Shown here piece after piece: positions 585 to 60,911 of a DNA stretch of 64,000 nt. The notes beneath the pieces were generated by a model. That model was not told the origin of the DNA. It searched no databases and saw only the letters and a program-made list of their open reading frames with translations. The stretch's first letter is position 1. Every line of letters begins with the position of its first letter. The DNA comes from Escherichia phage P479, in sequence record MW269952.1; one strand, written 5' to 3'. A program made the position numbers and the translations under genes.

Positions 585-622
585 CGCTTTAAAAATTTTA
601 TGTTATAATGGGGTCTAGGTCC
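585..622 (+). promoter_or_regulatory. middle-promoter-like element (variant MotA box cGCTTTA, 14 nt, TATAAT) with conserved downstream GGGGTCTAGGTCC
   Basis: Box at 585-591, TATAAT at 604-609, conserved core 610-622; member of the TATAATGG(T/G)TCTAG family seen at five sites in this window. Confidence 0.4.
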
Positions 623-656
623 TTTGGATAACCCCAATAACTAAGCGAGAAAAGAA

Positions 657-1783: not shown

Positions 1784-2115
1784 TGAATTTAATGGATATT
1801 TTTCAGGAAGCACTTAAAAATGATTTGGGTGACCATCGTAAGTTGGACCCGGAGACAGCTGCATTTATCAAAGTAACGCTTGCGAATGATGCTCTGTTTA
1901 AAAGTATTCACCCAAGTAATTATGATGCGGTTGTTATCACAGAAGCTCCTGTAGAAATTGGTGAGCGAATGTTTGGGGTGATTTTTGACGATAAGAAAAA
2001 ACGCTTCAGCGATGGTGATAGTATAATTACAACACATGTTAAGAGCATTACTAAATTGCGACATGAATTATATCGTGTTGAAACTATTAAAACCAATTAT
2101 CTCGTGGTGATGTAA
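1780..2115 (+). CDS. hypothetical protein
   Basis: ORF track, 111 aa; ATGA start/stop overlap with the upstream ORF. Confidence 0.45.
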   Translation: MMNLMDIFQEALKNDLGDHRKLDPETAAFIKVTLANDALFKSIHPSNYDAVVITEAPVEIGERMFGVIFDDKKKRFSDGDSIITTHVKSITKLRHELYRVETIKTNYLVVM

Positions 2116-6686: not shown

Positions 6687-7531
6687 AACCCGTTATTTTA
6701 ACCGATATTGATGGCGTATGTTTGTCATGGCAGTCTGGCTTGCCTTATTTCGCTCAAAAATATAATTTACCCCTGGAACATATCCTTAAGATGATTCAGG
6801 ATGAAAAATTTGTGACCCCTGGTAAACTGTTCAATTGTGATGAAGAGTTAGGAGCGCAGTTAATTGAAAAATATAACTGTTCAGATTTTATTCGCTATTT
6901 GTCTCCTTACACAGATGCGTTAAGGGTTATTAATAACCTCAAAGAGCAATATGATTTTGTGGCTGTTACAGCCCTGGGTGATTCTATTGATGCTCGCCTG
7001 AATCGTCAATTCAACCTGAATGCTTTGTTCCCTGGGGCGTTTAAAGAAGTGATGATGTGTGGTCATACAGCCTCTAAAGAAGAGTTATTCCAGAAAGCGA
7101 AGACCAAATATAATGTCGTTTGTTATATTGATGACCTTGCACACCATTGCGACCATGCGAGTGAAATCCTTGAAGTCCCGGTTTATTGGATGGCTCGTGG
7201 TGAACGTGATGCTATTCCTAAAACAGCTTCCAAAGTTTTTAATTGGGACGATGTTGCTGGACAGCTTAAACTGAAACACAAAGATGAACCGGTCAAGCCA
7301 GAATACACCCCTGATGAACTCCGTAAACTGGACGAGCTGTTTCGTGAAACTCGCCGTCTTCAGCAGCAAATGCAGCAAGGCTGGCAGCCAGGTCAACCAT
7401 GGACTCCTGGATATAATCCAGCGTATCCATATCAATATAATCCAGCGTACCCATATCAATATGGTCCACGCGTAGGTACTGGCATTGAATATTGGTACAA
7501 TCAACCGACCGGTGGCCAAGGGGGTAATTGA
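6683..7531 (+). CDS. HAD-superfamily-like hydrolase with Q/P/Y-rich low-complexity C-terminal tail (positional equivalent of T4 30.2)
   Basis: N-terminal ILTDIDGV resembles the HAD phosphatase motif I (DxDG); C-terminus ...QQQMQQGWQPGQPWTPGYNPAYPYQYNPAYPYQYGPRVG... is encoded by a tandem 24-bp repeat. Confidence 0.5.
   Translation: MKPVILTDIDGVCLSWQSGLPYFAQKYNLPLEHILKMIQDEKFVTPGKLFNCDEELGAQLIEKYNCSDFIRYLSPYTDALRVINNLKEQYDFVAVTALGDSIDARLNRQFNLNALFPGAFKEVMMCGHTASKEELFQKAKTKYNVVCYIDDLAHHCDHASEILEVPVYWMARGERDAIPKTASKVFNWDDVAGQLKLKHKDEPVKPEYTPDELRKLDELFRETRRLQQQMQQGWQPGQPWTPGYNPAYPYQYNPAYPYQYGPRVGTGIEYWYNQPTGGQGGN
7414..7461 (+). repeat. tandem 24-bp direct repeat x2 (one mismatch) inside the 6683-7531 CDS
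   Basis: taatccagcgtatccatatcaata / taatccagcgtacccatatcaata; encodes the duplicated NPAYPYQY. Confidence 0.85.
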
Positions 7532-11853: not shown

Positions 11854-12811
11854 ATAATATACGTTGACTTCCACCAGAGACTGTTCTCCCAGAACCAGTG
11901 AACGTATTGTACAGACTTGTTAATCCAGATTGAGCACCAGACAAGCGGCTCAATTTGGCAACTTCTGAGTTCAAGTTGTTATCTGAACTAATACCAGATA
12001 CACCCTTAATAACCTTATCTTCCAACCATTCCAATGCCGCAGCTCTTCCCACCGCACCAGTTGACATAACGCGATAAGCAAAAGTCACATCAAATGTAGC
12101 TATCTGATTATCCCCTTCATAGCTCAATTCAGGCGCAGATACACTTACAGGAACACAACCAGTTAACATAACAACCGTGTGCGGTAACCCATTACGTGAA
12201 TGAAGGTTAACCTGAATATCAGCTTCAACGTCTTCAGGCAAAGCCCTTAGCTGGGTAACTGGGTCCTGTACAGAGTTAACCCAATCGTTAAATGCTCTGA
12301 AGTTCCCTGCCTCTGAATCCATTCTAAAGCTCAATACCAACGGAGAATATTCTCTCCCGGTTATCTTGATATTTGGTGCATTATGGTTAAGGTCCATTTC
12401 GTAGTTCAATGTGTTATCCGGAAGCTTAACAGAGTGAACTAATAGACCAGCCGTTGGATATGCCATATTAAAGAAATCAAGTAGGTAAGTACCAACCTCA
12501 AATTCCCCCAATAATGATTGCACAACACGGTTACTCATTGCACCGATAAGATATTTGCTTATCCCTGATTTACGAATAAGCTTTTGTGTTCCGGCCGTAA
12601 CAAGAGTTGTTATCCCCTGAGTTAAGTCACCTTGTGTTAATCCGAACCAATCTGAGTTAACAGGAAGGTTACTGAATAATGCACCCCCGAACTGGTCCAG
12701 AAGATTCTGAGATTTGGAGGAAGGCGTGGTCGCGAAGACCACACTAAAAAGGTTATTCCTCTGCAAGTCGATATTAATCGCTTGTGTTTGAAATTCTTGT
12801 AAAGTAAACAT
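11852..12811 (-). CDS. 54: baseplate tail-tube initiator gp54
   Basis: 319 aa (T4 gp54 320 aa); synteny 54-48-29-28-27-51. Confidence 0.8.
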   Translation of the reverse strand: MFTLQEFQTQAINIDLQRNNLFSVVFATTPSSKSQNLLDQFGGALFSNLPVNSDWFGLTQGDLTQGITTLVTAGTQKLIRKSGISKYLIGAMSNRVVQSLLGEFEVGTYLLDFFNMAYPTAGLLVHSVKLPDNTLNYEMDLNHNAPNIKITGREYSPLVLSFRMDSEAGNFRAFNDWVNSVQDPVTQLRALPEDVEADIQVNLHSRNGLPHTVVMLTGCVPVSVSAPELSYEGDNQIATFDVTFAYRVMSTGAVGRAAALEWLEDKVIKGVSGISSDNNLNSEVAKLSRLSGAQSGLTSLYNTFTGSGRTVSGGSQRIL

Positions 12812-17293: not shown

Positions 17294-18042
17294 TTTTTCA
17301 AGTCCTTCTCAACTAGTGATAAAGCAATACCTCGTTCAATAGGAATCATATGCATGATGCTATCTAGCGAATATTGATTCTTTACCAGCAAGTGGTTAAT
17401 TTGATAAAATACAAAGACTTCATCCGGGTTAAGGATAAGCTTAAAGACGTCAAGCAGGTCAGTATATTCGGTTTTGTGTTTTTCGCAGCAACCATATGTA
17501 AATGGGATATAAACTGAATGCATTTTCTTAAGGAGTGCTTCAAGGCTCTCTATATCAATTGCATCGATAACCTGCATCTTTGTTTCTTCGGGGAGGTCTT
17601 CCCAATTGTATTTTTGTTCCGAGTCTTCGACAGTCTGGATGGTGTTTAGAACAAGCTCCGACTTATCTTTATATTCCACTTCAGGGAACTTAAATTGTAT
17701 TTTTATCCCGGCGGTTTCCATTGTTGGATTTATCAATGGACCCTGATTCATGTTAAACAAAGTCTGCTTTGTCTTTTTACATTTTTGACATTCGAACGCT
17801 ACCGGGACTTTTGTCTTACCGATAGAGGAAGTGAATACCTTCAGGAATATGTAAGGCCTCCATGCTTTTGGATACTCTCCAAAATAATCTTCCAACAGTT
17901 CGTCTAATAATTGTTTTTGTTCTTCGACGGGTTTGTTGTTCATGTCGTTTCGCACAAGCAGTAAATCACGGTAATCAGCGACTGTAAACGGTTTGAAACG
18001 ATGAACTCCGTCTGGCATTTCACATCTTACGATATTGGCCAT
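17290..18042 (-). CDS. 51: baseplate hub assembly catalyst gp51
   Basis: 250 aa (T4 gp51 249 aa); synteny. Confidence 0.75.
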
Positions 18043-18066
18043 AGAATCCCCTTTTATCTTTATTGA

Positions 18067-18078
18067 TATTTATAAATA
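18067..18078. promoter_or_regulatory. overlapping divergent late promoters (TATAAATA on both strands) for genes 51 and 26
   Basis: tatttataaata: - strand TATAAATA at 18067-18074 (25 nt before the gene 51 ATG), + strand TATAAATA at 18071-18078 (17 nt before the gene 26 ATG). Confidence 0.6.
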
Positions 18079-18095: not shown

Positions 18096-18719
18096 ATGAC
18101 TTATGAATTTATTGTCCAAATTAAAAATAAAACTATAAATTGTAGGGCTTTTACCTTGCGCGAATACAAAGATTTGCTTCAGGCAAAATTAGAAAAGCGC
18201 ATGGAACCTGCAATAATTGAACTGCTTAATAAATGCACTGATGCTAAAGGGTTAAACAAACAGGAAGCCGAGCTGCTTCTTATTAATCTCTGGGCAAATA
18301 GTCTCGGAGCTGTTAACGTCGAGCATACATGGGTATGTGAGTGCGGAAAGGAACAAGATATTCCTGTGACTATAAGTCGCGCAAGCATCGTGGATGAGTC
18401 TGAGGTTATTCGTGATTTCGGGGCGTTTAAAATTAAATTCCGTTATCCTGGACTGTTTGAAGATGGCGATAAAGGAAAAATGATTGCTTGTTGTATCGAA
18501 TATATTATCACGGAAGGCGGTGAGCGTATCGTTGTTGATGACTTAAATGAGGCCGAAATCGAGGACCTGTACAATGCAATTACCCTCGATGATATAAATG
18601 CACTAACAGAAGAACTTCTCAAGCCACAGGTCCAAATGGCTATTCCTATCTCTTGCGAGTGTGGAGCACATTCTGTCCATGTAATTAAGGGGCTTAAAGA
18701 ATTCTTTAAGTTTATGTAA
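18096..18719 (+). CDS. 26: baseplate hub subunit gp26
   Basis: 207 aa from the internal ATG with RBS aaggag (T4 gp26 208 aa); synteny. Confidence 0.75.
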   Translation: MTYEFIVQIKNKTINCRAFTLREYKDLLQAKLEKRMEPAIIELLNKCTDAKGLNKQEAELLLINLWANSLGAVNVEHTWVCECGKEQDIPVTISRASIVDESEVIRDFGAFKIKFRYPGLFEDGDKGKMIACCIEYIITEGGERIVVDDLNEAEIEDLYNAITLDDINALTEELLKPQVQMAIPISCECGAHSVHVIKGLKEFFKFM

Positions 18720-19109
18720 ATGAATATAAACAAAATGTATAGCGATGTGTCTCCCGACTTATCTACAAGTTGGGATAAAGACGTTGCTAAAGTAACTGGT
18801 GCAAGGTCTGTTAAGAACAGTCTTTTGGGAATAATCACCACAAGAAAAGGGTCAAGGCCTTTTATGCCTGAATTTGGATGTGATATAAGTAATCAGCTTT
18901 TTGAGAATATCACTCCATTAATCACAGATACCATTAAACGCAACATCGTCTCCGCGGTGCGGAACTTTGAACCAAGGATAAGCAATCTGCAGGTTGCAGT
19001 TGTCCCTATGTATGATGATAACTCCATTATCGTAACGGTTCAGTTCAGCATTGTTGATGACCCTGATACCCTCGAACAAATCAGGATTCAGCTAAGTCAA
19101 AACGGTTAA
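18720..19109 (+). CDS. 25: baseplate wedge protein gp25 (gpW/lysozyme-like fold family)
   Basis: 129 aa (T4 gp25 132 aa); synteny between 26 and uvsY. Confidence 0.8.
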   Translation: MNINKMYSDVSPDLSTSWDKDVAKVTGARSVKNSLLGIITTRKGSRPFMPEFGCDISNQLFENITPLITDTIKRNIVSAVRNFEPRISNLQVAVVPMYDDNSIIVTVQFSIVDDPDTLEQIRIQLSQNG

Positions 19110-19146
19110 TGCTTTAATTTTATGGCTGTATAATGGTTCTAGACCC
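19107..19146 (+). promoter_or_regulatory. MotA-box middle promoter upstream of uvsY (equivalent of T4 P_uvsY)
   Basis: aTGCTTTA box 19109-19116, TATAAT 19129-19134, conserved GGTTCTAGACCC 19135-19146; the same position as the classical T4 uvsY middle promoter. Confidence 0.6.
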
Positions 19147-19162
19147 TTACATTGGATACATT

Positions 19163-19597
19163 ATGAAAACAGAGATTGAATATAAGTTAGAAGTCTTTCA
19201 GGATGAGTTGGATGCAGATTTAAAAATTGATGGTACACAACTTCAATATGAAACACAAAACAACGTTTTGTTGCATAGCAAATGGTTGAGATTGTATACT
19301 AACTGCAAGAAAGAAATAATGCGTCTTGAGATTCAGAAGAAAACTGCACTGAAAAAACGACTAGACCATTATACAGGAAGGGGTGACCCAGGGGAAGAAG
19401 TATGCATGGATGTATACGAGAAGTCAGAATTGAAAACAGTCATGGCCGCAGATTCAAGCGTGTTGAAGATTGATACTTCAATTCAGTATTGGGCACTGCT
19501 CCAGGACTTCTGTAGCGCTGCATTAGATGGTGTTAAGTCACGAAGTTTCGCACTTAAACATATGTTAGAAATAAGACAATTTGAGGCGGGCAAGTAA
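19163..19597 (+). CDS. uvsY: recombination mediator UvsY
   Basis: Translation ...DGTQLQYETQNNVLLHSKWLRLY...LQYWALLQDFCSAALDGVKSRSFALKHMLEIRQFEAGK matches recalled T4 UvsY; start at the internal ATG. Confidence 0.85.
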   Translation: MKTEIEYKLEVFQDELDADLKIDGTQLQYETQNNVLLHSKWLRLYTNCKKEIMRLEIQKKTALKKRLDHYTGRGDPGEEVCMDVYEKSELKTVMAADSSVLKIDTSIQYWALLQDFCSAALDGVKSRSFALKHMLEIRQFEAGK

Positions 19598-19830
19598 TGC
19601 GATATTCTATCGACGATGCGTTTAACCAAGACGAAGAGTTCGAAGAAGAAATTAAGTATATGATGAAGGAATGGAAATTGAATCGTGCAGATATTCGTAT
19701 CTGCGCTGACCACCCTTGTGGTGAAGATGTTATCTATGTTAAAGGTAAATTTGCGGGATACATCGATGATGCGTTCTATTCTCACAATATGGGAATAGAT
19801 ACTGGTATGAGATACTTTAAGGAAAATTAA
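19597..19830 (+). CDS. hypothetical protein (uvsY.-1 position)
   Basis: ORF track, 77 aa; ATGA overlap with the uvsY stop. Confidence 0.45.
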   Translation: MRYSIDDAFNQDEEFEEEIKYMMKEWKLNRADIRICADHPCGEDVIYVKGKFAGYIDDAFYSHNMGIDTGMRYFKEN

Positions 19831-19970
19831 ATGAAAAATATTAGTAAGATTCTCGACGAGATGGTTATCTCTGCAAACCGAATAACCGAAATTGTTAATG
19901 AGATGAAAGCTCGTGCTGCTATTATGAAGAACACTAAATAGATATGTAAGTTTAACTGAGGAGACAATCA

Positions 19971-20138
19971 TGTCAGATAAGATTTGTGTTGTCTGTAAAA
20001 CTCCAATCGATTCTGCATTGGTTGTGGATACAGACCAAGGTCCGGTGCATCCGGGCGCCTGTTATAATTATGTTCAGAGTTTGCCAGTTACGGAAAATAC
20101 AGAAGAGCAACTGAACGAGACCCAACTTTTAATTTAGC
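19971..20138 (+). CDS. small Cys-containing protein, 55 aa (uvsY.-2 position)
   Basis: ATG at 19971 with RBS gaggag; MSDKICVVCKTPIDS...HPGACYNY suggests a possible CxxC...C metal site. Below the ORF-track cutoff. Confidence 0.35.
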
Positions 20139-20194
20139 TAGTGTTGTTAACCATTTTTGGTTTTGCCCCTTCCTTTTGGTTGGGGCCTTTTTAT

Positions 20195-20422
20195 TTAGAA
20201 ATCTTCGTCTTCTTCGTCGTCCATATCCTCAAGCTCGGCGCGTTTACCGGCAAGAGCATCACGAACACTGATATCATCGGAATCTTTCAGTTCAGCTTCT
20301 TTGCTGCGTTTCTTATAATAGCCTTCCAACTCCTTCAGACCGTCCATGGTCTGACAGGAACCAATCTTAGCCATAAAGCCTTCAATTGATGCTTCGTACA
20401 TAATTTCTTCGAAGGATTTCAT
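20195..20422 (-). CDS. small acidic protein (positional equivalent of T4 UvsW.1)
   Basis: 75 aa with an acidic C-terminus (EDMDDEEDEDF); lies downstream of uvsW, separated from it by the HNH gene. Confidence 0.45.
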   Translation of the reverse strand: MKSFEEIMYEASIEGFMAKIGSCQTMDGLKELEGYYKKRSKEAELKDSDDISVRDALAGKRAELEDMDDEEDEDF

Positions 20423-21207
20423 TATATTTCCACCTGTTTAATAAATTTATCGACCATTTTCCCATAGTGTACTTTAGGATATCCAGCTTCGACAGCGATT
20501 TTGGTAAATCCCGTTACTTTAGGTTTATTGTTATTTATCCAAAGTAAAAATAACTCGTCATATAATAGCCAATGCGGATATTTTTTGGCATGAGTCTCTT
20601 TCCAATTTTTGGAATGGTCTTCACTTCTAAAAGATTTTTTAACACCTTTATTTGCCTTTCCCGCCTTAGAACATGTCGCATAATCACCCGCCTTGACAGG
20701 AGTAAATCCTTTCATAGCTTTAGATTTTTTGTCACGCGTTTCCTGAGACTGTTTGGACCCGGTGTTTTTTGCCCAGGCCTTTTCCAAAGCTTTTAATTTC
20801 GCGGGAGTGAATCCGACTTTTCGCATGGCGTCAATATGTATTTGGAGACGTTCTGCGGACCATTCATATGAACCATGATTATTACCCATCAAAGCTTCAC
20901 TAATTAAATGTGATGCCTTTTCTTTAAGCAGTGTAATGGTTCTTGAACTAACTTCTTTTAGGCGTCGACCGTTTGTCATACCAAATGCTGCGCGCCATAA
21001 TTTACCACCTTGTGCTTTTGCTAAAATAACATGAGCTAATATATGTTCACGAACTGTTAAAGCAACTAAATTATTAGGATGGTTGGAACCTCCAACCGAC
21101 TTTGGTATAATATGATGTATTTCAATTCGACAAGGAGCAGAGGTCTTTGTCCAACCCCTTGTCCTTGCATTTGAAATTAAATCATCGTAAATTTTTTGAT
21201 AATTCAT
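20422..21207 (-). CDS. HNH-family homing endonuclease (Mob-like)
   Basis: 261 aa; N-terminal EIHHIIPKSVGGSNHPNNLVALTVREH is an HNH motif; ATGA-type overlaps with both neighbours. Confidence 0.7.
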   Translation of the reverse strand: MNYQKIYDDLISNARTRGWTKTSAPCRIEIHHIIPKSVGGSNHPNNLVALTVREHILAHVILAKAQGGKLWRAAFGMTNGRRLKEVSSRTITLLKEKASHLISEALMGNNHGSYEWSAERLQIHIDAMRKVGFTPAKLKALEKAWAKNTGSKQSQETRDKKSKAMKGFTPVKAGDYATCSKAGKANKGVKKSFRSEDHSKNWKETHAKKYPHWLLYDELFLLWINNNKPKVTGFTKIAVEAGYPKVHYGKMVDKFIKQVEI

Positions 21208-22703
21208 AGTTCCACATGTTTCACTACATAGTTAAAACGTTCATCAGCATATCGTTGAATACGTTCAAGGCCGTGTTTAAGAAGATAGTTCAAATGAACA
21301 TATTTCTTTTTAGCGTTTGCTGATTTAGGACGGACCCCCATGTCGTCAACGATATCCCAAACATTTGCTTGCGATTTGGATGCGTGTTTTCGAAGTACAC
21401 GACCGATTGTTTGAAGGACAATTACCTTTGATTTTACACCGTGGGCGAAAATAATATGATGGAGGTTTTTAACGGAAATCCCCGTCGAGAATACACCGTA
21501 TGAAGCTACAACAATAATTCCCTTTCCATTCTCTGCCATGACCTTCAGAGCATTACGGGTTTCGGTATCGACTTCCCCAGAAACATAATACACTTTTTCA
21601 TGACCAGCTTCTTTAAGCATTTCAAACATCGATTTGCCGTGCTCGATATTCTTAAACATCAAAAAGACGTTTTCATCTTTTTTAGAAAGCTTGAGTGCAA
21701 GGTTTGTTACCCATTTATTTCGGCGTGTAGCTTTTGTAATTACCTTGATTTCATCCTGATAAGTTTTACCTTTCATTTTAACGGTGAATTCATCAGGGTA
21801 ACGAAGGAAAATACTATTTATTTTAAGGTCAGTAACCTGACCATCTTCCATCAATTTCGATGTTGATACTGGTTTAAAGATATCACCAAACAGACCCATA
21901 TATTGCATAAGGTTGGCTTTGCCATCACGGAGTGAACCTGACAGACCAAATTTAAACATGCAATTCGTAAGGCCTTCGATAACCGTCGAAATCGATTTAC
22001 CTGTAGCCATGTGGCATTCGTCATTCATAAACTGGCCAAACTGTTCAAACCATTCTTTAGGTTGTTTTACAGCCGTCTGATAAGTCGATACATAAATCAT
22101 CGCATCAGAATCGCGTTTAGTCCCAGAACGAATACCCAGACAAGCTGCACGAGGGAAAAGCCGATAATCAACAAAGTCATTAATCATCTGGTCAACAAGG
22201 GCCGTTGTAGGAACAAGGATAAGCACCTTGCCTTCATAGTTCTCGAGATAATATCGCGCCAGAAGCGCCTGGATGAGGCTTTTACCTGCAGACGTAGGTA
22301 AGTTCAGAATCTTTCTTCTGTTGACCAGACCATCATATACGGCGTCAGATTGATACCAATGGGGCGTTATCTTGGTATTGCCTGAATAGATTTCTTTTGA
22401 CTCGACCCATTTGTCGAATTCTTCGCGAGAGATTTCTTCTTTCTCGGTGATTTGCGGGTCAATCCAGAATGAATAACCAAACTGGTCAGCGAACTTTTTA
22501 ATTTGATTAACCAAACCGTATGGTAATTTACGATTGTAATCCAGGAGGCGGATTCGTCCGTCCCAAACTCCCTGCTTGAACTTTGGATTGAAGCGATAGT
22601 TTTCAGCTTCGAAGCTGAAGTAATCACGGAGTTCGTAGAAGATTCCATCTTCACATTCAACATGCACGTGACTAAAATTTAGAAAGTTGATTTTAATATC
22701 CAT
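21204..22703 (-). CDS. uvsW: UvsW DNA/RNA helicase
   Basis: N-terminus MDIKINFLNFSHVHVECEDG...LPTSAGKS (Walker A) and DECH box; matches recalled T4 UvsW. Confidence 0.85.
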   Translation of the reverse strand: MDIKINFLNFSHVHVECEDGIFYELRDYFSFEAENYRFNPKFKQGVWDGRIRLLDYNRKLPYGLVNQIKKFADQFGYSFWIDPQITEKEEISREEFDKWVESKEIYSGNTKITPHWYQSDAVYDGLVNRRKILNLPTSAGKSLIQALLARYYLENYEGKVLILVPTTALVDQMINDFVDYRLFPRAACLGIRSGTKRDSDAMIYVSTYQTAVKQPKEWFEQFGQFMNDECHMATGKSISTVIEGLTNCMFKFGLSGSLRDGKANLMQYMGLFGDIFKPVSTSKLMEDGQVTDLKINSIFLRYPDEFTVKMKGKTYQDEIKVITKATRRNKWVTNLALKLSKKDENVFLMFKNIEHGKSMFEMLKEAGHEKVYYVSGEVDTETRNALKVMAENGKGIIVVASYGVFSTGISVKNLHHIIFAHGVKSKVIVLQTIGRVLRKHASKSQANVWDIVDDMGVRPKSANAKKKYVHLNYLLKHGLERIQRYADERFNYVVKHVEL

Positions 22704-22731
22704 GATGATTCCAAGGTAATAAATATATCTA

Positions 22732-22739
22732 TATTTATA
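22732..22739 (-). promoter_or_regulatory. T4-type late promoter for uvsW
   Basis: + strand tatttata = TATAAATA on -, 29 nt upstream of the uvsW ATG. Confidence 0.55.
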
Positions 22740-25150: not shown

Positions 25151-25190
25151 TTTTGCTTCAAATAAAAATGCGGTATAATGGTTCTAGACC
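25151..25190 (+). promoter_or_regulatory. MotA-box middle promoter upstream of rnlB
   Basis: TTTGCTTCA box 25151-25159, TATAAT 25173-25178, conserved GGTTCTAGACCCC 25179-25191. Confidence 0.55.
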
Positions 25191-25273: not shown

Positions 25274-26281
25274 ATGTTTAAGAAATACAACAGCCTTGAA
25301 AATCACTATAACAACAAGTTCATTGAAAAGATTCGCCTGCAAGGCTTCACCAGCGGTGAATGGGTAGCTCGCGAGAAGATTCATGGTACCAACTTTTCAT
25401 TAATCATTGAACAAGACAATGTGACATGTGCGAAACGCACTGGACCTATCCTGCCTGCAGAAGATTTCTATGGTTATGAAATTGTACTAAAGAATTATGC
25501 TGATTCTATTAAATCTGTGCAGAAACTTTTGCAGGATATTAATTACCAGGCATACCAGATTTACGGTGAGTTTGCCGGGACAGGTATCCAGAAGAATGTG
25601 GATTACGGTGATAAAGATTTTTATGTATTTGATATCCGCGTTACTAAAGAAGATGGTTTTGAATCCGTCCTGACTGACACACTTATGGAAGCCTTTTGTA
25701 TTATTCATAAGTTTAAAGTTGCCCCGCGCCTGGCTACAGGTAGTTTTGAAGAATTAATTAAGCTACCTAATGACCTGGATTCTGTGGTCCCTGATTACAA
25801 TTTTACAGTGGATAACGCAGGATTGACTACAGCAAATACCACTGATTTTGATGCAAAGGTGGAAGGTAAAGTATTCACTGCTGAAGGATTTGTATTAAAA
25901 CCTGATGTTCCTGCATGGTTACCTAACGGCGAGCGTGTAGCGATTAAATGTAAGAACTCTAAATTCAGTGAAAAGAAAAAGTCTGATAAGCCTATTAAGG
26001 CTGCAGTGGTTCTGAGCCAAAATGATATGGATTTACTGTGGAATTTCACTGATTATGTGACTGTTAACCGTATCAACAATGTTATCAGTAAAATTGGGGA
26101 AGTAACACCGAAGGATTTTGGAAAGGTAATGGGGTTAACAGTTCAAGATATTCTGGAAGAAGCCGGGCGCGAAGGTCTTGAATTGTCCCTGACGGAAAAT
26201 CCTGTTGAAGTTAAAAAGCAACTCATCGCAAATGTAAGAGAAACATTAAGACATGTTTGGATTGCATTAGTTAGTGAATAA
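25274..26281 (+). CDS. rnlB: RNA ligase 2
   Basis: 335 aa; N-terminus [19 protein letters not shown]...[13 protein letters not shown] (ligase KxHGxN-type motif); matches recalled T4 Rnl2. Confidence 0.9.
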
Positions 26282-54621: not shown

Positions 54622-56364
54622 TTAGCCAATGTCAATCCTCGAACCATCAATAGTATATTGACCAGATGCAATAGAACTCATTGTTGACATTGTTTCGGAC
54701 CAATTGCCAGCCACGGTCATATCAACGTTTCCATTAACGGACCATTTGACATTACCATTTACCGTATAATCATGGTTACCTTCGACAAGAGTTTTTGCGT
54801 CACCTTTAACAGTTATTTCAGCATTACCTTCGACCAGAATACTTACATTACCTTTGACAATAATTGTACCGTCACCTTCAATGGTTTTGGTTTCATTCCC
54901 ACGAATATGAATGCTTTCGTTTCCATCGGTCTGACGACGAACGTTAGCCATATTGTAATAGGTTTCATCACCACCAACGTTGACTTTATTATTACCACCA
55001 ACATAAGTACTCGAATCACCCTGGGTCATATAATAACCATCAGCTACAGTCTTCGAAGTCTTACGACCATCCGGTGCAACTTCCTCGTAGGAACCGGTCG
55101 GGTGAATCAGTCGATAACGTTCTTGTCCAGGGGTGTTATCGAATTCCTGAACATGTCCGCCTTCAGTTTGCATTGTCTGCACATAAGGATATTCGCCCTT
55201 GTAACTGGATTCTGGCTCTTTAAATAGAATCCTCGTATCTTCTGGAGTCCACGGGTCGGCTGGGTCAGAATTTGTAGGGGCTGCAAAGGTTTGAATCATC
55301 CTATATGAACGTCCTTTAAATGACATTTCTTTAGGGGCCATAATACCATATGATTCCATGTTACCTGTGAGGATAATCATTGATACCCTTGATGCACGGC
55401 CTTTAGTTTGGTTAAACCATACAGAATCACGAGCGGCATCAAATGCTTTCTTATAATCTCCGGCTAACATTGCAGCGAGCATCGTTTTAAATTTAGCAAG
55501 CCCACTCAATCCCATTTGGAAAGCCATGTTTTCAAGAGCCATTTGTCTCGAACGGTTTTCTTTATTGTAAACTGGACCCACAACACTATGCCGGCCTATA
55601 TCGTTTTGTACTTTTTTAAGGTCTTCTTGGAATAATTTAGAGGCCTCGTCCATTGATATTGCACCAGGGTTACCTTTAACTTCACGACCTATTTGATTAG
55701 ATAATATTTTGTTTATCTGATTCATATCTCTAATAGGTTGTGGTGCAATTAAGTGTCCTATACCTATAGTAGGATAACCTTCGGTGTCCCAATATACTTT
55801 CAAACGAAGACCTTCATCACGGTGAAGCATATTTTCAATTGTGAAATTAGGATTATCATCTGGCTTAACTTGACTCAAATCAAGGCCATCGGGGTTAATA
55901 CCAAGGTCAAGGTTTGCATCCTGAATTACGTTCGAAGTTGCATCATAACCGACCTCACCGCCTCGGTTGAGCGCAGCAGCATCATTACCTACATAAAGTG
56001 GATATTGTCCTGTTGGGTCAGAGAATCCTTCGTTGGGATTTGCTTTTTGTCTTGAGGCTGAACCATATGTACCAATAACAAGCCCGTTGAGTTTCCACTT
56101 GTCTAAAAAGTGACCATATACTTGAGTCCCTGGCACCATACCGGTCATTGCAGTTTGAATACCAGAAACTGATGCAGATGATGTTGGCATCAATACAGAC
56201 ATCCATGGCAGGTCTTCAGTTCTGATACCTTTTACAGGCCCTTGCGATTTCTCATATGGATGCATACCCCATACACGAACACGAACACGACCTTGTTGAA
56301 GTGGGTCCATTCGGTCTTCGACAACACCGACGAACCAACTTACATTATCTGACATATTAATCAT
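54622..56364 (-). CDS. 5: baseplate central spike with tail lysozyme domain gp5
   Basis: 580 aa (T4 gp5 575 aa); C-terminal beta-helix repeats (VxGxxxxxV-type periodicity); synteny. Confidence 0.85.
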   Translation of the reverse strand: MINMSDNVSWFVGVVEDRMDPLQQGRVRVRVWGMHPYEKSQGPVKGIRTEDLPWMSVLMPTSSASVSGIQTAMTGMVPGTQVYGHFLDKWKLNGLVIGTYGSASRQKANPNEGFSDPTGQYPLYVGNDAAALNRGGEVGYDATSNVIQDANLDLGINPDGLDLSQVKPDDNPNFTIENMLHRDEGLRLKVYWDTEGYPTIGIGHLIAPQPIRDMNQINKILSNQIGREVKGNPGAISMDEASKLFQEDLKKVQNDIGRHSVVGPVYNKENRSRQMALENMAFQMGLSGLAKFKTMLAAMLAGDYKKAFDAARDSVWFNQTKGRASRVSMIILTGNMESYGIMAPKEMSFKGRSYRMIQTFAAPTNSDPADPWTPEDTRILFKEPESSYKGEYPYVQTMQTEGGHVQEFDNTPGQERYRLIHPTGSYEEVAPDGRKTSKTVADGYYMTQGDSSTYVGGNNKVNVGGDETYYNMANVRRQTDGNESIHIRGNETKTIEGDGTIIVKGNVSILVEGNAEITVKGDAKTLVEGNHDYTVNGNVKWSVNGNVDMTVAGNWSETMSTMSSIASGQYTIDGSRIDIG

Positions 56365-56996
56365 AATGCCTTCCTCTGTTTTAAAATATTTTTAACTATG
56401 GAAATATTATGCTCACATATATTTCGATTGAATTGGTAAAAATCAAATCCTAACTTTTTAATATGTCGAGACACATAACGGGTTTCAACCGACGTTGGTA
56501 TAAACCCCATGTTCTTAGTTATTGTCTGCTCATTTTCAAAATGCTTTTTAAGCTTATCAGAAAGAATCTTCTTTTTCTCTTCTGAACATTTTTTGCCATA
56601 ATTTGGTGCATTTACTCCATGCTGGTCTCGCTTTTTTCCATACATGGGATTATTTTTACCTGAGTTATTTGCACTCATAATATCTTTAGTTTTCTGGCTA
56701 TGTTTTCGACCTTTAAAGTTATCATGTTTTAAAAATCCACCGGAGCCGCCTGGTTTTAAATTGTATGAGTTTTCATTAAGAACAACAAGTTCCTTTTCAA
56801 GTTCATACATTTCTTGTTTGGAATCAACAAATTTTAATATTTCTTTTTTGAAATTTTCAATGCCATATTTTAGTATGGCACGTTTAATTAATTTACCTGA
56901 GCCCATATATCCATCATCCATATTTGATGTACTATGCGCCCCGATATAAAATTTGCCGTTAATATTATTGGTTATTTTATATACATAATAAAACAT
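56361..56996 (-). CDS. GIY-YIG homing endonuclease (Seg-like) inserted between genes 53 and 5
   Basis: N-terminus YYVYKITNNINGKFYIGAHS is a GIY-YIG motif; NUMOD3-like repeats (NPMYGKK, NAPNYGKK); start and stop overlap the neighbouring genes. Confidence 0.75.
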   Translation of the reverse strand: MFYYVYKITNNINGKFYIGAHSTSNMDDGYMGSGKLIKRAILKYGIENFKKEILKFVDSKQEMYELEKELVVLNENSYNLKPGGSGGFLKHDNFKGRKHSQKTKDIMSANNSGKNNPMYGKKRDQHGVNAPNYGKKCSEEKKKILSDKLKKHFENEQTITKNMGFIPTSVETRYVSRHIKKLGFDFYQFNRNICEHNISIVKNILKQRKAL

Positions 56997-57646: not shown

Positions 57647-58099
57647 ATGGCATACTCCGGGAAATGGCAACCTAAAAACGTTGCAAAGTACAAAGGAGAC
57701 TGGAAGAAAATTACCTACAGGTCAAACTGGGAAAAATTTGTATTTAACTGGTTGGATAATCATCCAGATGTGGTGCAATGGGGGTCAGAGACCGTTATCA
57801 TTCCATATTTTAGTAATGCGGATGGTAAAAAACGCAGGTATTACATGGATATGTGGGTAAAATTTTCAAATGGTCAACAATTTTTCTTTGAGGTTAAACC
57901 CAAAAAGGAAACAAGACCTCCAGCAAAACCAGTTAATACGACCGCTGCGAGCAAGAAGAGATTTATGAACGAAATGTATGTTTGGGCTGTTAATTCGGAT
58001 AAATGGAAAGCCGCTCAAGCTGTAGCTGATAAAATGGGCATCCAATTTAGATTGATTACTGAAGATGCACTTAGGAAAATGGGTTATAAGGGTTTATAA
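57647..58099 (+). CDS. 4: head completion protein gp4
   Basis: 150 aa; MAYSGKWQPKNVAKYKGDWKKITYRSNWEKF... matches recalled T4 gp4; divergent from gene 53 as in T4. Confidence 0.75.
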   Translation: MAYSGKWQPKNVAKYKGDWKKITYRSNWEKFVFNWLDNHPDVVQWGSETVIIPYFSNADGKKRRYYMDMWVKFSNGQQFFFEVKPKKETRPPAKPVNTTAASKKRFMNEMYVWAVNSDKWKAAQAVADKMGIQFRLITEDALRKMGYKGL

Positions 58100-58746
58100 T
58101 GTATACGGTATATCAAATAACAAATAAAATTAATAACAAAATTTACATCGGTGTGCACAAAACCGACAATATCGATGACAAGTATATGGGCACAGGGAAA
58201 TTAATATTAAAAGCTCATAAAAAATATGGTATTGAAAATTTTCAAAAGGATATTTTATTTGTTTTTGATTCCATCAATGAATCAGAGAACGAAAATTTAG
58301 CCTTTGCTAAAGAGGCTGATTTAGTCGACCAAGAATTTGTTAATCGGCCCGACACGTACAACATTGATTTGGGTGGTAGAGGCGGTCGCGGCCGCTCCGC
58401 TTCTGTTAGAAAACGTATTGGTGATGCCCAGCGAGGAAAACCTGGTAAAAAACCATCAAAAGAATCTCGTTTAAAAATGAGTTTGGCACACAAGGGTAAA
58501 AAATTATCCGAAGAACATAAGATAAAAATTGGCAATGCTGGCCGTGGTAAAAAGCGTCCTGAAAGTGCAAATGAAGCGGTTAGACAACATTTATTAGGGG
58601 TTCCTCGTAAAGAAGAACATAAAAATAATATGAGAATTGGTTTTCTAAATACACCTACCAAAATATGTCCACACTGTGGATTAGAATGCAAACCAGCCCC
58701 ATTTAAAAGATGGCATGGCGATAATTGCAAAGCGAGGAAAGGATGA
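58099..58746 (+). CDS. GIY-YIG homing endonuclease (Seg-like) inserted between genes 4 and 2
   Basis: N-terminus [19 protein letters not shown] is a GIY-YIG motif; NUMOD3-like repeats; C-terminal CPHCG...HGDNC zinc-finger-like; overlaps the gene 4 stop and gene 2 start. Confidence 0.75.
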
Positions 58747-59570
58747 GTATTTTTACATTTATCAATGAATCTGCAGATAAACCAGGTCCGAAACCCAGTA
58801 AATCAGAACAACAATGGGTTGAAATAGGGGTTGAATTTTATACAGCAAAAGAAAAGGGAATGACCTCGAAGAAGTTTGCTGAAGAGAAAGGAATCAACTA
58901 TTCGACCTTTACCAAAAGCATGTCAAGATATCATTCGAGAATTCAGACTGCTTATAAAGTATCCAAGCTCAAAAAGAAACCTGCCGGTAAACTTACGAAG
59001 GCTGAACGTCAGCTGATAATGGTGAATAGCTTTAGAAAGAGCATAAGAGATAAGATTGCTAACGAAGGCGCTGCAAGCAACACCAAATCTGCCAGATGGT
59101 TCGCTGAGACAATTAAGAAATCAGTTCGTGGTCACGTAACGGCTAAACCTCAACCGGGTAAGATTTATGCTTATATCTATGATGCAAAGCATAAGGATAC
59201 TCTTCCGTACTGGGATAAATATCCGTTAATCATTTATCTTGGGCTAGGTAAGCACAATTTGATGTATGGTTTGAACTTGCACTATATTCCACCGAAGGCA
59301 CGTCAAGAGTTCCTTGAGGAACTTCTTAAGCAATATGCTAATACTCCTACGATTACGAACAAGACTCATCTGAAGATTGATTGGTCAAAGGTGAAGGGAT
59401 TTAAAGGGGCTGACCAGATGATTAAAGCATATATACCTGGCAATATAAAAGGTACTATTACTGAAATCAAGCCCAGCGACTGGGCAAACGTTGTATTACT
59501 CCCCCTTCAGCAGTTTTTTTCAAAAGGCAAAAGATTTTCTTCACAGAAAGTATGGAGAAATTCACTTTGA
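58743..59570 (+). CDS. 2: DNA end protector protein gp2
   Basis: About 275 aa from the internal ATG (T4 gp2 274 aa); synteny 4-2-3-1. Confidence 0.75.
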
Positions 59571-60226
59571 ATTATCAGTTTATATATTCATCGTTAATTG
59601 AAAGGGCCCGTAACAGGGCCCTGATTTCATATAAAGAATCTCATCACATCATTCCGAAATGTATGGGCGGTTCAAATGCTCCGGATAACCTAGTCGATTT
59701 GACTCCCGAAGAACATTATGTAGCCCATCAACTATTGGTTAAAATATATCCTACAAATCCAGGTTTAAGTTTTGCTGCCACATCTATGAGCCAGTCAAGC
59801 AAGTATTTGAAACGCAATAATAAATTATTTGGCTGGTTAAGACGCAGACACGCTGACAATATTTCTAAAAGCCAAACCGGTAAAGTTTACTTTAATAATG
59901 GTGTCAAATCGATAAAACTATTTCCATGGGAAGATGTTCCGGATGGGTTTGTCAAAGGAAGACATTACAGTCCAACCAAGGGTACAAAACATTCTCGCAA
60001 TAATGGACATTTTAAAAATAAAGAGATTCAGGATGAATTGAGAAAGCGCCGGTGGGAAAAAGATAGGCAAGAAATGTGTAAAAACTTCGGAGTTGATACC
60101 ATCGAGCAAGCTCGAGAGTTGGTCCTAGCATATAAAAAGGAATTGCATCCTCGATACTGGGTAAAGCCAATGTTGGAACGTTATCCGTTTATGACTAAGC
60201 TAAGACTTAACACATTAATAAAATAA
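59552..60226 (+). CDS. HNH-family homing endonuclease (Mob-like) inserted between genes 2 and 3
   Basis: [30 protein letters not shown] motif; paralogous to 20422-21207 and to the partial gene at 1-118; overlaps the gene 2 3' end. Confidence 0.7.
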
Positions 60227-60261
60227 TCTATTATCGGTCAGTGTTATTGGTATGGACAAAA

Positions 60262-60298
60262 GGTCTAGAACCATTATAACACTGATTGTTTTAAAGCA
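60262..60298 (-). promoter_or_regulatory. middle-promoter-like element on - strand (TGCTTTA box, TATAAT, GGTTCTAGACC), antisense to the upstream HNH gene
   Basis: Reverse complement reads tttgctttaaaacaatcagtgtTATAATggttctagacc, with the same box-to-TATAAT spacing as the other family members. Confidence 0.4.
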
Positions 60299-60311
60299 AA
60301 CAAGGCGCACT

Positions 60312-60911
60312 ATGTCAGGTTTATATAATCAAACTAACACGACTAACTTTATATTAGAGGTAAGCGATTCAAACCTCACACAGACCTTTAAACTCAACGT
60401 TCAAGACGTTACCCTCCCAGGAGTTCACATTCCTGTGACGGATGTCCCTGGGGGAACACAAGGTATAAATCGCTCCAGTCTTCCTGGTAGTACAATAGAA
60501 TTCGACCCGCTGATTGTTAACTTTCTGTGTGACAAAGACCTAAGAGCGTGGCTTGACATCTATAAATGGATGCTCTCGCTCAACAACTACATCACACACG
60601 AATCAAAAGCATGGCATCCGAAAGGTCGTCCCGAAGCGGTCACGCTTCATATCTTAGATAACAACAAGGACAAAATTGTCATGTCAATCCATTACTATGG
60701 AGCATGGCCGTCCGACCTGTCAGAGATTCAGTATTCATATAAAGAAGATTCTGACCCGGCCATCAATGCAACAGCGACTTTTAACTTTAAGTCTTTTGCT
60801 GTAGAAATTGATGGTATAATAATAGAAGGTAGACCACAGATTGATAGTAATGCAACAATGCAACAGGAAATCAGGTCTAAGTCAATGCATCCATCTATGA
60901 GAAACGTATGA
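60312..60911 (+). CDS. 3: tail completion / sheath terminator protein gp3
   Basis: ORF 60252-60911; start placed at the internal ATG 60312 (uncertain); synteny between 2 and 1. Confidence 0.6.
   Translation: MSGLYNQTNTTNFILEVSDSNLTQTFKLNVQDVTLPGVHIPVTDVPGGTQGINRSSLPGSTIEFDPLIVNFLCDKDLRAWLDIYKWMLSLNNYITHESKAWHPKGRPEAVTLHILDNNKDKIVMSIHYYGAWPSDLSEIQYSYKEDSDPAINATATFNFKSFAVEIDGIIIEGRPQIDSNATMQQEIRSKSMHPSMRNV

What the first reader, a model, noticed from the sequence alone, without database searches (positions are those of the whole stretch)
19107..19146. uvsY-proximal middle promoter as a candidate replication origin (ori(uvsY) equivalent)
Seen: a well-formed MotA box/TATAAT promoter directly upstream of uvsY. 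Established, from memory: in T4 the uvsY middle promoter region functions as an origin of replication through a persistent R-loop formed by its transcript. Inference: this site may be an origin in this phage as well.
Basis: partly seen in the sequence, partly recalled or inferred. Interest (0 to 1): 0.4.

Follow-up and report, generated by a model that had tools for sequence, protein, structure and literature searches.

The report
uvsY middle promoter, possible replication origin
This is the counterpart, in a T4-related coliphage, of the T4 promoter that switches on the uvsY recombination gene and in T4 also starts DNA replication; the promoter is certain, the origin role is plausible but cannot be shown from sequence.

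Summary
At 19107-19134 the gene 25 stop codon runs into a perfect MotA box (TAATGCTTTA), followed by a 12-bp spacer and TATAAT, 28 nt before the uvsY start codon. The layout matches T4 PuvsY, the promoter of ori(uvsY)/oriF. This strict motif occurs 3 times in the window against 0.03 expected. It is conserved in front of uvsY across MotA-encoding Tevenvirinae. Close relatives of this phage (Gaprivervirus) encode MotA and AsiA.

Whether the site is also an origin cannot be settled in silico. The downstream DNA is as easy to melt as T4's unwinding element. But in T4 itself that measure, and RNA:DNA-hybrid energetics, do not separate the two known origin promoters from about 35 ordinary middle promoters.

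Indirect support: T4's other R-loop origin promoter (antisense in gene 34) is retained in this lineage with unusual synonymous-site conservation, and uvsW keeps its late promoter.

New context: the promoter belongs to a multi-copy cassette class (TATAATGGTTCTAGACC, 3 exact copies here). The class includes gene-less antisense copies conserved from T4 to this phage, so the uvsY site is not the only origin candidate.

Verdict: a new member of a known kind, with origin function about even odds.

The parts
18720..19109 (+). Gene 25 (baseplate wedge). Its stop codon TAA (19107-19109) forms the 5' flank of the MotA box.
   Evidence: Pfam GPW_gp25 E=5.8e-17. T4 has the same junction.
19107..19116 (+). 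MotA box TAATGCTTTA (core TGCTTTA at 19110-19116), centred near -30.
   Evidence: Matches the consensus (a/t)3TGCTTtA at 10/10 positions. A GCT-containing box is conserved at this position across Tevenvirinae.
19129..19134 (+). -10 element TATAAT, 12 bp after the MotA box.
   Evidence: The hexamer is invariant in 32 unique orthologous sequences.
19135..19150 (+). Conserved initial-transcribed block GGTTCTAGACCCTTAC. The predicted start site is A19141.
   Evidence: The start site is placed by homology to the mapped T4 PuvsY start. The 17-mer TATAATGGTTCTAGACC occurs 3 times in the window against 0.05 expected. The block is conserved across genera.
19141..19240 (+). Candidate downstream unwinding / R-loop zone (inferred): the 22-nt 5' UTR plus the first ~26 codons of uvsY.
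   Evidence: GC 0.30-0.33 against a window mean of 0.408. The least-stable 50-step window is -56.6 kcal/mol, against T4 oriF -56.5 and oriG -56.8. The leader RNA is unstructured, z=+0.8. This measure does not discriminate origins in T4.
19163..19597 (+). uvsY (recombination mediator), 144 aa.
   Evidence: Pfam UvsY E=1.6e-50. It is 61% identical to T4 UvsY.
19597..20137 (+). The rest of the operon: uvsY.-1 (19597-19830), a small ORF (19831-19941) and uvsY.-2 (19970-20137).
   Evidence: ORF list. DUF2685 E=2.4e-29 for uvsY.-2. Annotations in relatives.
20165..20196 (.). Intrinsic terminator hairpin (GCCCC...GGGGC followed by a U run) between the converging uvsY.-2 and uvsW.1 genes. It ends the ~1.06-kb PuvsY transcript.
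   Evidence: Fold energy -18.6 kcal/mol, z=-2.96. T4 has a terminator annotated at the same place.
21207..22739 (-). uvsW helicase gene (coding about 21207-22703) with the late-promoter motif TATAAATA at 22732-22739. In T4 this is the late-expressed helicase that unwinds R-loops at oriF and oriG.
   Evidence: Pfam UvsW_N E=1e-39 plus helicase domains. TATAAATA hit. Role in T4 from PMC3016281.
586..628 (+). Sister cassette: GCTTTA-N12-TATAAT-GGGGTCTAGGTCC, upstream of ORF 657-935.
25155..25190 (+). Sister cassette with the exact 17-mer, upstream of rnlB (25274-26281).
60262..60298 (-). Sister cassette with the exact 17-mer that has no gene to express. It overlaps the first codons of gene 3 (60252-60908, + strand) and fires antisense.
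   Evidence: An orthologous orphan promoter is present in T4 (record position about 75988, + strand) and in all 10 other lineages tested.

Best explanation
The site is the ortholog of T4 PuvsY, a MotA/AsiA-dependent middle-mode promoter. It starts transcription at about A19141 and drives the ~1.06-kb uvsY / uvsY.-1 / uvsY.-2 operon, which ends at the terminator near 20165-20196. I put this part at about 0.95.

My preferred fuller reading is that it also works like T4 ori(uvsY)/oriF. Early in infection, a fraction of the unstructured, purine-rich transcripts stay annealed to the template in the easily melted 19141-19240 region and form an R-loop. Phage RNase H trims the RNA to a 3'-OH that primes leading-strand synthesis toward uvsW. 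gp59 and gp41/61 then load on the displaced strand. The origin is switched off when middle transcription stops and when UvsW, made from its late promoter, unwinds R-loops.

Shown here: promoter anatomy, orthology, conservation, presence of the trans-acting genes, and low duplex stability downstream. Inferred only: R-loop persistence, priming, and any origin activity.
For: - Exact consensus promoter, non-random: 3 against 0.03 expected.
- Same junction with the gene 25 stop codon and same start-site geometry as T4 oriF.
- T4 oriF is defined as a middle promoter plus an A+T-rich DUE of no specific sequence, about 100 bp in all (PMC3016281).
- Downstream helix stability is identical to that of T4 oriF and oriG: -56.6 against -56.5 and -56.8 kcal/mol. 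The leader is unstructured.
- MotA (33% identical to T4's) and AsiA are encoded by relatives that are 98-99% identical to the window at this locus. gp59, the rnh-position exonuclease and gp32 are also annotated there.
- uvsW lies 2 kb downstream with a late promoter, as in T4.
- The T4 oriG promoter (P34i), antisense in gene 34, is retained at the homologous codons in Gaprivervirus RZ. Nine of 10 synonymous codons are identical there against 50% gene-wide, and only 3% of 28-nt windows in the gene are as conserved. This suggests R-loop origins remain under selection in this lineage.
- The site carries the extended cassette shared with T4 oriF. Its weight-matrix score is +18.6 bits. T4 oriF ranks 1st and oriG 2nd of 40 mapped T4 middle promoters.
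Against: - No experiment exists for any phage other than T4, and I found no origin mapping in relatives.
- In T4 only 2 of about 58-60 middle promoters act as plasmid origins.
- My calibration shows that downstream instability and RNA:DNA-minus-duplex energy rank oriF 24th and oriG 28th of 38. These 'DUE' measures therefore carry no predictive weight.
- The 5' UTR here is 22 nt against 44 nt in T4, and it lacks T4's A/C-rich CCAATAAC repeat. Similarity to the T4 leader beyond +16 is not significant, z=0.4.
- Conservation of the promoter is fully explained by the need to express uvsY.
- Three sister cassettes in the window are equally good or better candidates.
- The oriG match to the class motif is weak: -7.4 bits, p about 0.03.
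Confidence: 0.5

Rival explanations
1. Promoter only. The site is the middle promoter of the uvsY operon and has no origin activity in this phage. Replication would start elsewhere, for example at the ori(34) equivalent, at an oriE-type site, at other cassettes, or by recombination-dependent initiation.
For: - Expression of uvsY alone explains the conservation seen across genera.
- Most T4 middle promoters are not origins.
- The leader is half as long as T4's and lacks the T4 DUE core.
- The sequence metrics do not discriminate origins from non-origins.
- T4 origins share no common motif and their use is redundant and variable (PMC3016281).
Against: - The T4 DUE has no sequence requirement and can be replaced by heterologous unwinding elements, so a shorter or different leader does not exclude function.
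- Duplex stability here equals that of T4 oriF.
- The R-loop control gene uvsW, with its late promoter, and the oriG promoter are both retained in the lineage.
Confidence: 0.35
2. The relevant unit is the cassette class. The site's special feature is membership in a repeated promoter class: MotA box, then TATAAT, then GGTTCTAGACC. The shared role of this class would be something other than priming replication. Possibilities are an especially efficient initiation/escape sequence, production of antisense RNAs that hold late genes down before the late period, or repeats that promote recombination and module shuffling.
For: - Three exact 17-mers plus one variant lie in the window.
- Class members in T4 and other genera include orphan antisense copies with no downstream gene.
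- Class membership is not tied to one gene: T4 PrnlB is not in the class, whereas the rnlB promoters here and in Dhakavirus are.
Against: - The only class member that has been studied experimentally, T4 PuvsY, is an origin.
- The orphan antisense arrangement is the same logic as T4 ori(34).
- There is no evidence here for any alternative role.
Confidence: 0.12
3. A chance match to a short consensus, with no function.
For: None, beyond the general point that short motifs can recur by chance.
Against: - 0.03 expected against 3 observed.
- Exact positional orthology with T4.
- The -10 is invariant in 32 unique orthologous sequences.
Confidence: 0.01

Closest known systems
Bacteriophage T4 ori(uvsY) / oriF (PuvsY middle promoter plus downstream unwinding element)
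   Same: - Same locus between gene 25 and uvsY, with the MotA box abutting the gene 25 stop codon.
- Perfect TATAAT, with the start site at the A seven bases downstream.
- An A+T-rich, low-stability, purine-rich transcribed region.
- uvsW nearby under a late promoter.
- A MotA/AsiA system present in the lineage.
   Different: - MotA box TGCTTTA with a 12-bp spacer, against TGCTTCA with 13 bp in T4.
- 5' UTR of 22 nt against 44 nt. The T4 CCAATAAC(AAC) repeat is absent, so any unwinding zone must extend into the uvsY coding sequence.
- The lineage's MotA is only about 33% identical to T4's.
- Origin activity has not been tested.
Bacteriophage T4 ori(34) / oriG (P34i, antisense middle promoter inside gene 34)
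   Same: - Same mechanism class: a MotA promoter plus a DUE, forming an R-loop.
- Its promoter is retained in the Gaprivervirus relative RZ.
- The gene-3 orphan cassette in this window (60262-60298, minus strand) has the same 'promoter without a gene, antisense in late genes' layout.
   Different: - The uvsY site is a sense promoter with a clear gene-expression role.
- oriG lies outside this window.
ColE1-type RNA II priming and E. coli oriK (constitutive stable DNA replication)
   Same: Initiation by a transcript that stays hybridised to the template and is processed to a primer. The analogy is drawn in PMC3016281.
   Different: - ColE1 RNA II needs a specific folded structure and a G-rich hybrid anchor. 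Here the leader is unstructured and no such element is seen.
- The trans-acting factors are phage-encoded.
Repeated promoter cassettes of T4-type phages (PeSL 'promoter-early stem-loop' elements; recalled from memory, Arbiol et al. 2010, not checked here)
   Same: A short regulatory module repeated at several places in the genome, some copies at module boundaries next to mobile endonuclease genes.
   Different: These are MotA-type middle promoters with a conserved initial-transcribed block. They are not early promoters followed by a stem-loop.

Membership tests
T4-type MotA-dependent middle-mode promoter | A MotA box (a/t)(a/t)(a/t)TGCTTtA centred near -30. | tested here: met
   TAATGCTTTA at 19107-19116 matches 10/10 positions.
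T4-type MotA-dependent middle-mode promoter | A sigma-70 -10 element TAtaaT placed 12 +/- 1 bp downstream of the box, with an excellent match required. | tested here: met
   TATAAT at 19129-19134 with a 12-bp spacer.
T4-type MotA-dependent middle-mode promoter | No functional sigma-70 -35 element; the box replaces it. | tested here: met
   The best -35 match is 3/6, and the generic sigma-70 scan does not list the site.
T4-type MotA-dependent middle-mode promoter | The phage encodes MotA and AsiA. | tested here: met
   These genes are not inside the window. Relatives 98-99% identical at this locus (vB_EcoM_RZ, TH55) carry a MotA homolog (33% identity over 98% of T4 MotA), and RZ also has an annotated anti-sigma factor in the T4 gene order. 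The same box is enriched in this lineage.
T4-type MotA-dependent middle-mode promoter | Transcription in vivo or in vitro depends on MotA and AsiA. | not testable with these tools
   This needs primer extension or dRNA-seq with motA/asiA mutants.
T4 R-loop origin of the ori(uvsY)/ori(34) type | A middle-mode promoter is an essential component. | tested here: met
   See the promoter rows above. The definition comes from PMC3016281.
T4 R-loop origin of the ori(uvsY)/ori(34) type | An A+T-rich DNA unwinding element of about 50 bp lies immediately downstream of the promoter. | tested here: inconclusive
   GC is 0.30-0.33 against a window mean of 0.41. The least-stable 50-step window is -56.6 kcal/mol, equal to T4 oriF (-56.5) and oriG (-56.8). 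However, 23 of 35 T4 middle promoters scored are at least as unstable as oriF, so the test cannot discriminate.
T4 R-loop origin of the ori(uvsY)/ori(34) type | The promoter transcript forms a persistent RNA-DNA hybrid, leaving the non-template strand single-stranded. | not testable with these tools
   The nearest-neighbour hybrid-minus-duplex energy is unremarkable here and at both T4 origins. This needs KMnO4 or S9.6 mapping.
T4 R-loop origin of the ori(uvsY)/ori(34) type | The site drives autonomous plasmid replication in infected cells, or gives an early copy-number peak or bubble arcs in the genome. | not testable with these tools
   No data exist for this phage or its relatives in the searchable literature.
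T4 R-loop origin of the ori(uvsY)/ori(34) type | Positional orthology with T4 oriF (the gene 25 / uvsY junction). | tested here: met
   Gene order is 27, 51 | 26, 25, uvsY, uvsY.-1, uvsY.-2 | uvsW.1, uvsW, and the stop-codon/MotA-box junction is identical.
T4 R-loop origin of the ori(uvsY)/ori(34) type | Shut-off by UvsW helicase expressed from a late promoter. | tested here: met
   uvsW is at about 21207-22703 (minus strand), with TATAAATA at 22732-22739 (minus strand). Function is inferred from T4.
T4 R-loop origin of the ori(uvsY)/ori(34) type | Location near a switch of transcription strand and nucleotide skew (true of oriE, oriF and oriG in T4, but not of all origins). | tested here: met
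   Genes 51 (-) and 26 (+) diverge at 18042-18063, 1.1 kb upstream, and GC skew changes sign around 17-18 kb. This is weak evidence, because skew follows transcription direction.

The most novel reading that the evidence does not exclude
The uvsY promoter is one copy of a conserved, multi-copy class of MotA-dependent cassettes. The class is defined by a fixed initial-transcribed block: MotA box, N11-13, TATAAT, G(G/A)(T/G/A)TCTA(A/G)(G/A)(T/C)CC, then TT.

The class contains T4 oriF. It weakly resembles T4 oriG. It also includes orphan copies that fire antisense with no gene to express. One orphan sits at the start of gene 3, here and in T4 and ten other lineages. Another sits in the srd/modA gap in T4.

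The conserved block, rather than A+T-richness, could be the missing determinant that makes a middle-promoter transcript persist as an R-loop primer. If so, these cassettes would be the phage's dedicated R-loop origins, and this window would hold four of them, with start sites near 622, 19141, 25186 and 60266.
Probability: 0.15. Interest if true: 0.7.

Novelty: new member of a known kind. Interest (0 to 1): 0.35.

Why it matters
That is useful for annotation, but it would not surprise a specialist.

It gains some value from two results of this check. First, simple 'unwinding element' or R-loop energy measures cannot pick T4's own origins out of its middle promoters. Origin calls made by analogy therefore need experiments. 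Second, the T4 oriF promoter turns out to belong to a small, conserved cassette family with gene-less antisense members.

[quoted passage not shown] The conserved initial-transcribed block gives a concrete variable to mutate. The orphan copies give new loci to test in the established plasmid-replication assay.

Tried and rejected
- **Helix stability and GC content downstream of the promoter as a DUE test.** The site looks like T4 oriF, but calibration on 35 mapped T4 middle promoters shows oriF and oriG are unexceptional (ranks 24 and 28 of 38). I rejected the measure as a discriminator. My first version of this calculation took the wrong extreme and was redone.
- **RNA:DNA-hybrid minus duplex nearest-neighbour energy and purine content.** These are also non-discriminating.
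- **GC skew and cumulative skew.** Skew follows local transcription direction, so it gives no independent origin signal.
- **RNA structure or a known RNA family in the leader.** There is none: z=+0.8 and +0.4, and no Rfam hit at E<=1.
- **Iterons or tandem repeats, as at T4 oriE or plasmid origins.** None were found near the site or near the gene 53/4/5 region.
- **The perfect 12-nt inverted copy of the -10 region inside uvsY (19365-19376).** It is lineage-specific, arises from the D-H-Y-T codons, has variable flanks among close relatives, and has no MotA box or -35. I treat it as a coding by-product.
- **Apparent similarity of the gene-3 orphan leader to the T4 oriF DUE (CCAATAAC).** It is not significant beyond +16, with z=2.1 at best and 0.4 for the uvsY copy.
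- **Membership of T4 oriG in the cassette class.** The evidence is only weak: rank 2 of 40, but at -7.4 bits.
- **Literature.** I found no origin mapping in T4 relatives. Brister & Nossal 2007, Brister 2008, Carles-Kinch 1997 and Miller 2003 are not held. The T4 dRNA-seq start-site table is not in the held supplement.

Full report
**What the window is.** The region around the finding is 97-99% identical to coliphages of the SP18/VR7/VR26/RZ group (Gaprivervirus). The best matches are TH41 and UPEC01 at 99.1%. Gene order is that of T4: genes 27 and 51 on the minus strand, then 26, 25, uvsY, uvsY.-1 and uvsY.-2 on the plus strand, then uvsW.1, an inserted HNH endonuclease gene and uvsW on the minus strand. 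Window GC content is 0.408.

**The observation.** The sequence reads TAA (gene 25 stop, 19107-19109), TGCTTTA (19110-19116), a 12-bp spacer, then TATAAT (19129-19134). The uvsY ATG is at 19163. The published consensus for T4 middle promoters is (a/t)(a/t)(a/t)TGCTTtA placed 12 +/- 1 bp from TAtaaT (PMC2988021), and this site matches it at every position. A loose version of the motif is barely enriched: 7 observed against 2.5 expected. The strict form, TGCTTYA-N11-13-TATAAT, occurs 3 times against 0.03 expected. No usable -35 element is present, and the generic sigma-70 scan does not list the site.

**Orthology with T4 PuvsY/oriF.** In T4 the gene 25 stop codon TAA is likewise fused to the MotA box TGCTTCA, followed by 13 bp and TATAAT. 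An old T4 GenBank entry annotates exactly these as 'mot box' and 'TATA_box'. The mapped T4 start site, 115371, is the A seven bases after the -10. The equivalent A here is at 19141. That gives a 22-nt leader, against 44 nt in T4. The T4 record places oriF at 115321, about 50 nt into that transcript.

**Conservation.** I examined 11 named genomes and 49 IMG/VR uvsY loci. A perfect TATAAT with a GCT-containing box 11-13 bp upstream precedes uvsY in almost every lineage down to about 54% UvsY identity. It is absent from the RB49-like and the large Aeromonas/Vibrio phages; the review lists phages such as KVP40 and Aeh1 as having no recognisable motA. The promoter is therefore ancient. The need to express uvsY in the middle period is enough to explain that.

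**Trans-acting factors.** The window does not contain motA or asiA. Relatives that are 98-99% identical at this locus encode a MotA homolog (33% identical to T4's over 98% of its length). RZ also has an annotated anti-sigma factor in the T4 gene order, together with gp59, the rnh-position exonuclease and gp32. uvsW lies 2 kb downstream of the promoter and is preceded by the late-promoter motif TATAAATA. In T4, late-made UvsW unwinds origin R-loops (PMC3016281).

[quoted passage not shown] The element's sequence is not specific and it can be replaced by heterologous ones.
- Downstream of the promoter here, GC is 0.30-0.33 and the least-stable 50-step window is -56.6 kcal/mol. That is essentially equal to T4 oriF (-56.5) and oriG (-56.8).
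- I then calibrated the measure on T4 itself. Among the 38 promoters scored (35 mapped T4 middle promoters plus three from the window), oriF ranks 24th and oriG 28th for downstream instability. RNA:DNA-hybrid minus duplex energy is equally uninformative.
- So the site passes the DUE criterion only in the sense that most middle promoters do. The leader RNA is unstructured and matches no Rfam family. No iterons occur nearby. GC skew merely follows gene orientation.

**Indirect evidence that R-loop origins persist in this lineage.**
- T4's oriG promoter P34i is antisense inside gene 34 and has no gene to express. In the Gaprivervirus RZ the same antisense promoter, TTTGCTTCA-N13-TATAAT-GGTCCCAGAG, sits at the homologous codons.
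- Across those codons 9 of 10 synonymous codons are identical, against 50% gene-wide. Only 3% of 28-nt windows in the gene are as conserved.
- This points to selection on the DNA itself. It modestly raises the prior that the oriF equivalent is also used.

**An unexpected context: a promoter cassette class.** The 16 nt after the -10 (GGTTCTAGACCCTTAC) are conserved in uvsY promoters across genera. They recur elsewhere in the window.
- The 17-mer TATAATGGTTCTAGACC occurs three times against 0.05 expected: at 19129 (+), 25174 (+) and 60278 (-). A fourth variant lies at 586-628. Each has a MotA box.
- The copy at 25155 serves rnlB, and the copy at 586 serves ORF 657-935.
- The copy at 60262-60298 overlaps the first codons of gene 3 on the opposite strand and fires antisense with no ORF of its own.
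- T4 has the same orphan in its gene 2/3 gap (about 75988, + strand). It has another in the srd/modA gap (about 11885, + strand). Both read TATAATG(A/G)(A/G)TCTAAGTCC, like T4 PuvsY, and neither is in the published table of T4 middle promoters.
- The gene-3 orphan is present in all ten other lineages examined, down to 54% gp3 identity.
- T-even genomes in IMG/VR carry at least four sites matching the strict pattern.

**Is the class linked to origins?** I trained a weight matrix on class members, excluding both T4 origin promoters. It ranks PuvsY/oriF first of 40 mapped T4 middle promoters (+13.6 bits) and P34i/oriG second. The oriG score is weak, however: -7.4 bits, roughly p=0.03. The oriA promoter is not in the class. 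Similarity among leaders beyond about +16 is not significant.

I therefore treat 'cassette class equals origin-competent promoters' as an unproven lead, at about 0.15. It has one firm consequence: the uvsY site is not the only candidate in this window, nor clearly the best one, for a function beyond gene expression.

**Verdict.**
- The promoter is real and orthologous to T4 PuvsY (about 0.95).
- That it also acts as an R-loop origin is a reasonable extrapolation, which I put near even odds (0.5). The main rival is 'promoter only' (0.35).
- The finding is a new member of a known kind. Interest is modest (0.35), lifted slightly by the cassette observation and by the demonstration that DUE-style metrics do not identify T4 origins.

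Noticed in passing
window 586-628 (+), 19110-19150 (+), 25155-25190 (+), 60262-60298 (-): A family of middle promoters shares an extended block after the -10. TATAATGGTTCTAGACC is present as 3 exact copies against 0.05 expected, plus one variant. The meaning of the conserved initial-transcribed block is unknown.
   Followed up: partly
window 60262-60298 (-); T4 locus L066 about 1960-2010 (+) (record position about 75988); loci L097-L108: An orphan middle promoter fires antisense from the start of gene 3 toward gene 2, with no ORF of its own. It is conserved in T4 and in all 10 other lineages checked, and it is absent from the published T4 middle-promoter table. The layout is that of T4 ori(34).
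   Followed up: partly
T4 locus L064 about 11860-11905 (+), the srd/modA intergenic gap: A second orphan antisense cassette in T4 (AATGCTTTA-N13-TATAATGAATCTAAGTCC) has a start region nearly identical to that of T4 PuvsY. It is conserved in T-even contigs L072, L083, L086, L088, L091 and L092.
   Followed up: partly
L065 7741-7765 (-) (vB_EcoM_RZ gene 34): The T4 ori(34) antisense promoter is retained in Gaprivervirus at the homologous codons. Nine of 10 synonymous codons are identical, against 50% gene-wide.
   Followed up: yes
L013 447-497 compared with L038-L043: T4 itself carries an extra ~11 bp forming a tandem repeat in the oriF leader (AATAACAACC-AATAACAATTG). Its close T-even relatives lack it, so the classic T4 unwinding element is longer than in sister phages.
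   Followed up: no
window 20425-21207 (-): An HNH endonuclease ORF (261 aa; Pfam HNH E=9e-5) is inserted between uvsW.1 and uvsW. No gene is annotated between uvsW and uvsY.-2 in the T4 record.
   Followed up: partly
window 59552-60223 (+); 56364-56996 (-); 58099-58743 (+): There are three mobile endonuclease genes. The ORF between genes 2 and 3 is annotated as a homing endonuclease and is present in only 8 of 34 relatives. Two GIY-YIG/NUMOD3 seg-like ORFs flank the gene 53/4 divergence. The first lies directly beside the orphan cassette.
   Followed up: partly
window 19126-19137 and 19365-19376: A perfect 12-nt inverted repeat (CTGTATAATGGT / ACCATTATACAG) places an antisense TATAAT inside uvsY. 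It is lineage-specific, comes from the D-H-Y-T codons, and has no MotA box or -35. It is probably coincidental.
   Followed up: yes
window 18067-18078: Two overlapping, oppositely oriented late-promoter motifs (TATAAATA on both strands) lie in the A+T-rich gap (GC 0.20-0.25) between the diverging genes 51 and 26. This is the least stable DNA near the finding.
   Followed up: no
window 19597-19830: uvsY.-1 appears to be variable. Several close relatives (VR20, P896, PSD2001, CJ20) align over only about 80% of the 18700-19900 query, in two pieces.
   Followed up: no
window 7411-7474: A 24-nt tandem repeat is present: 2.6 copies at 90% match.
   Followed up: no
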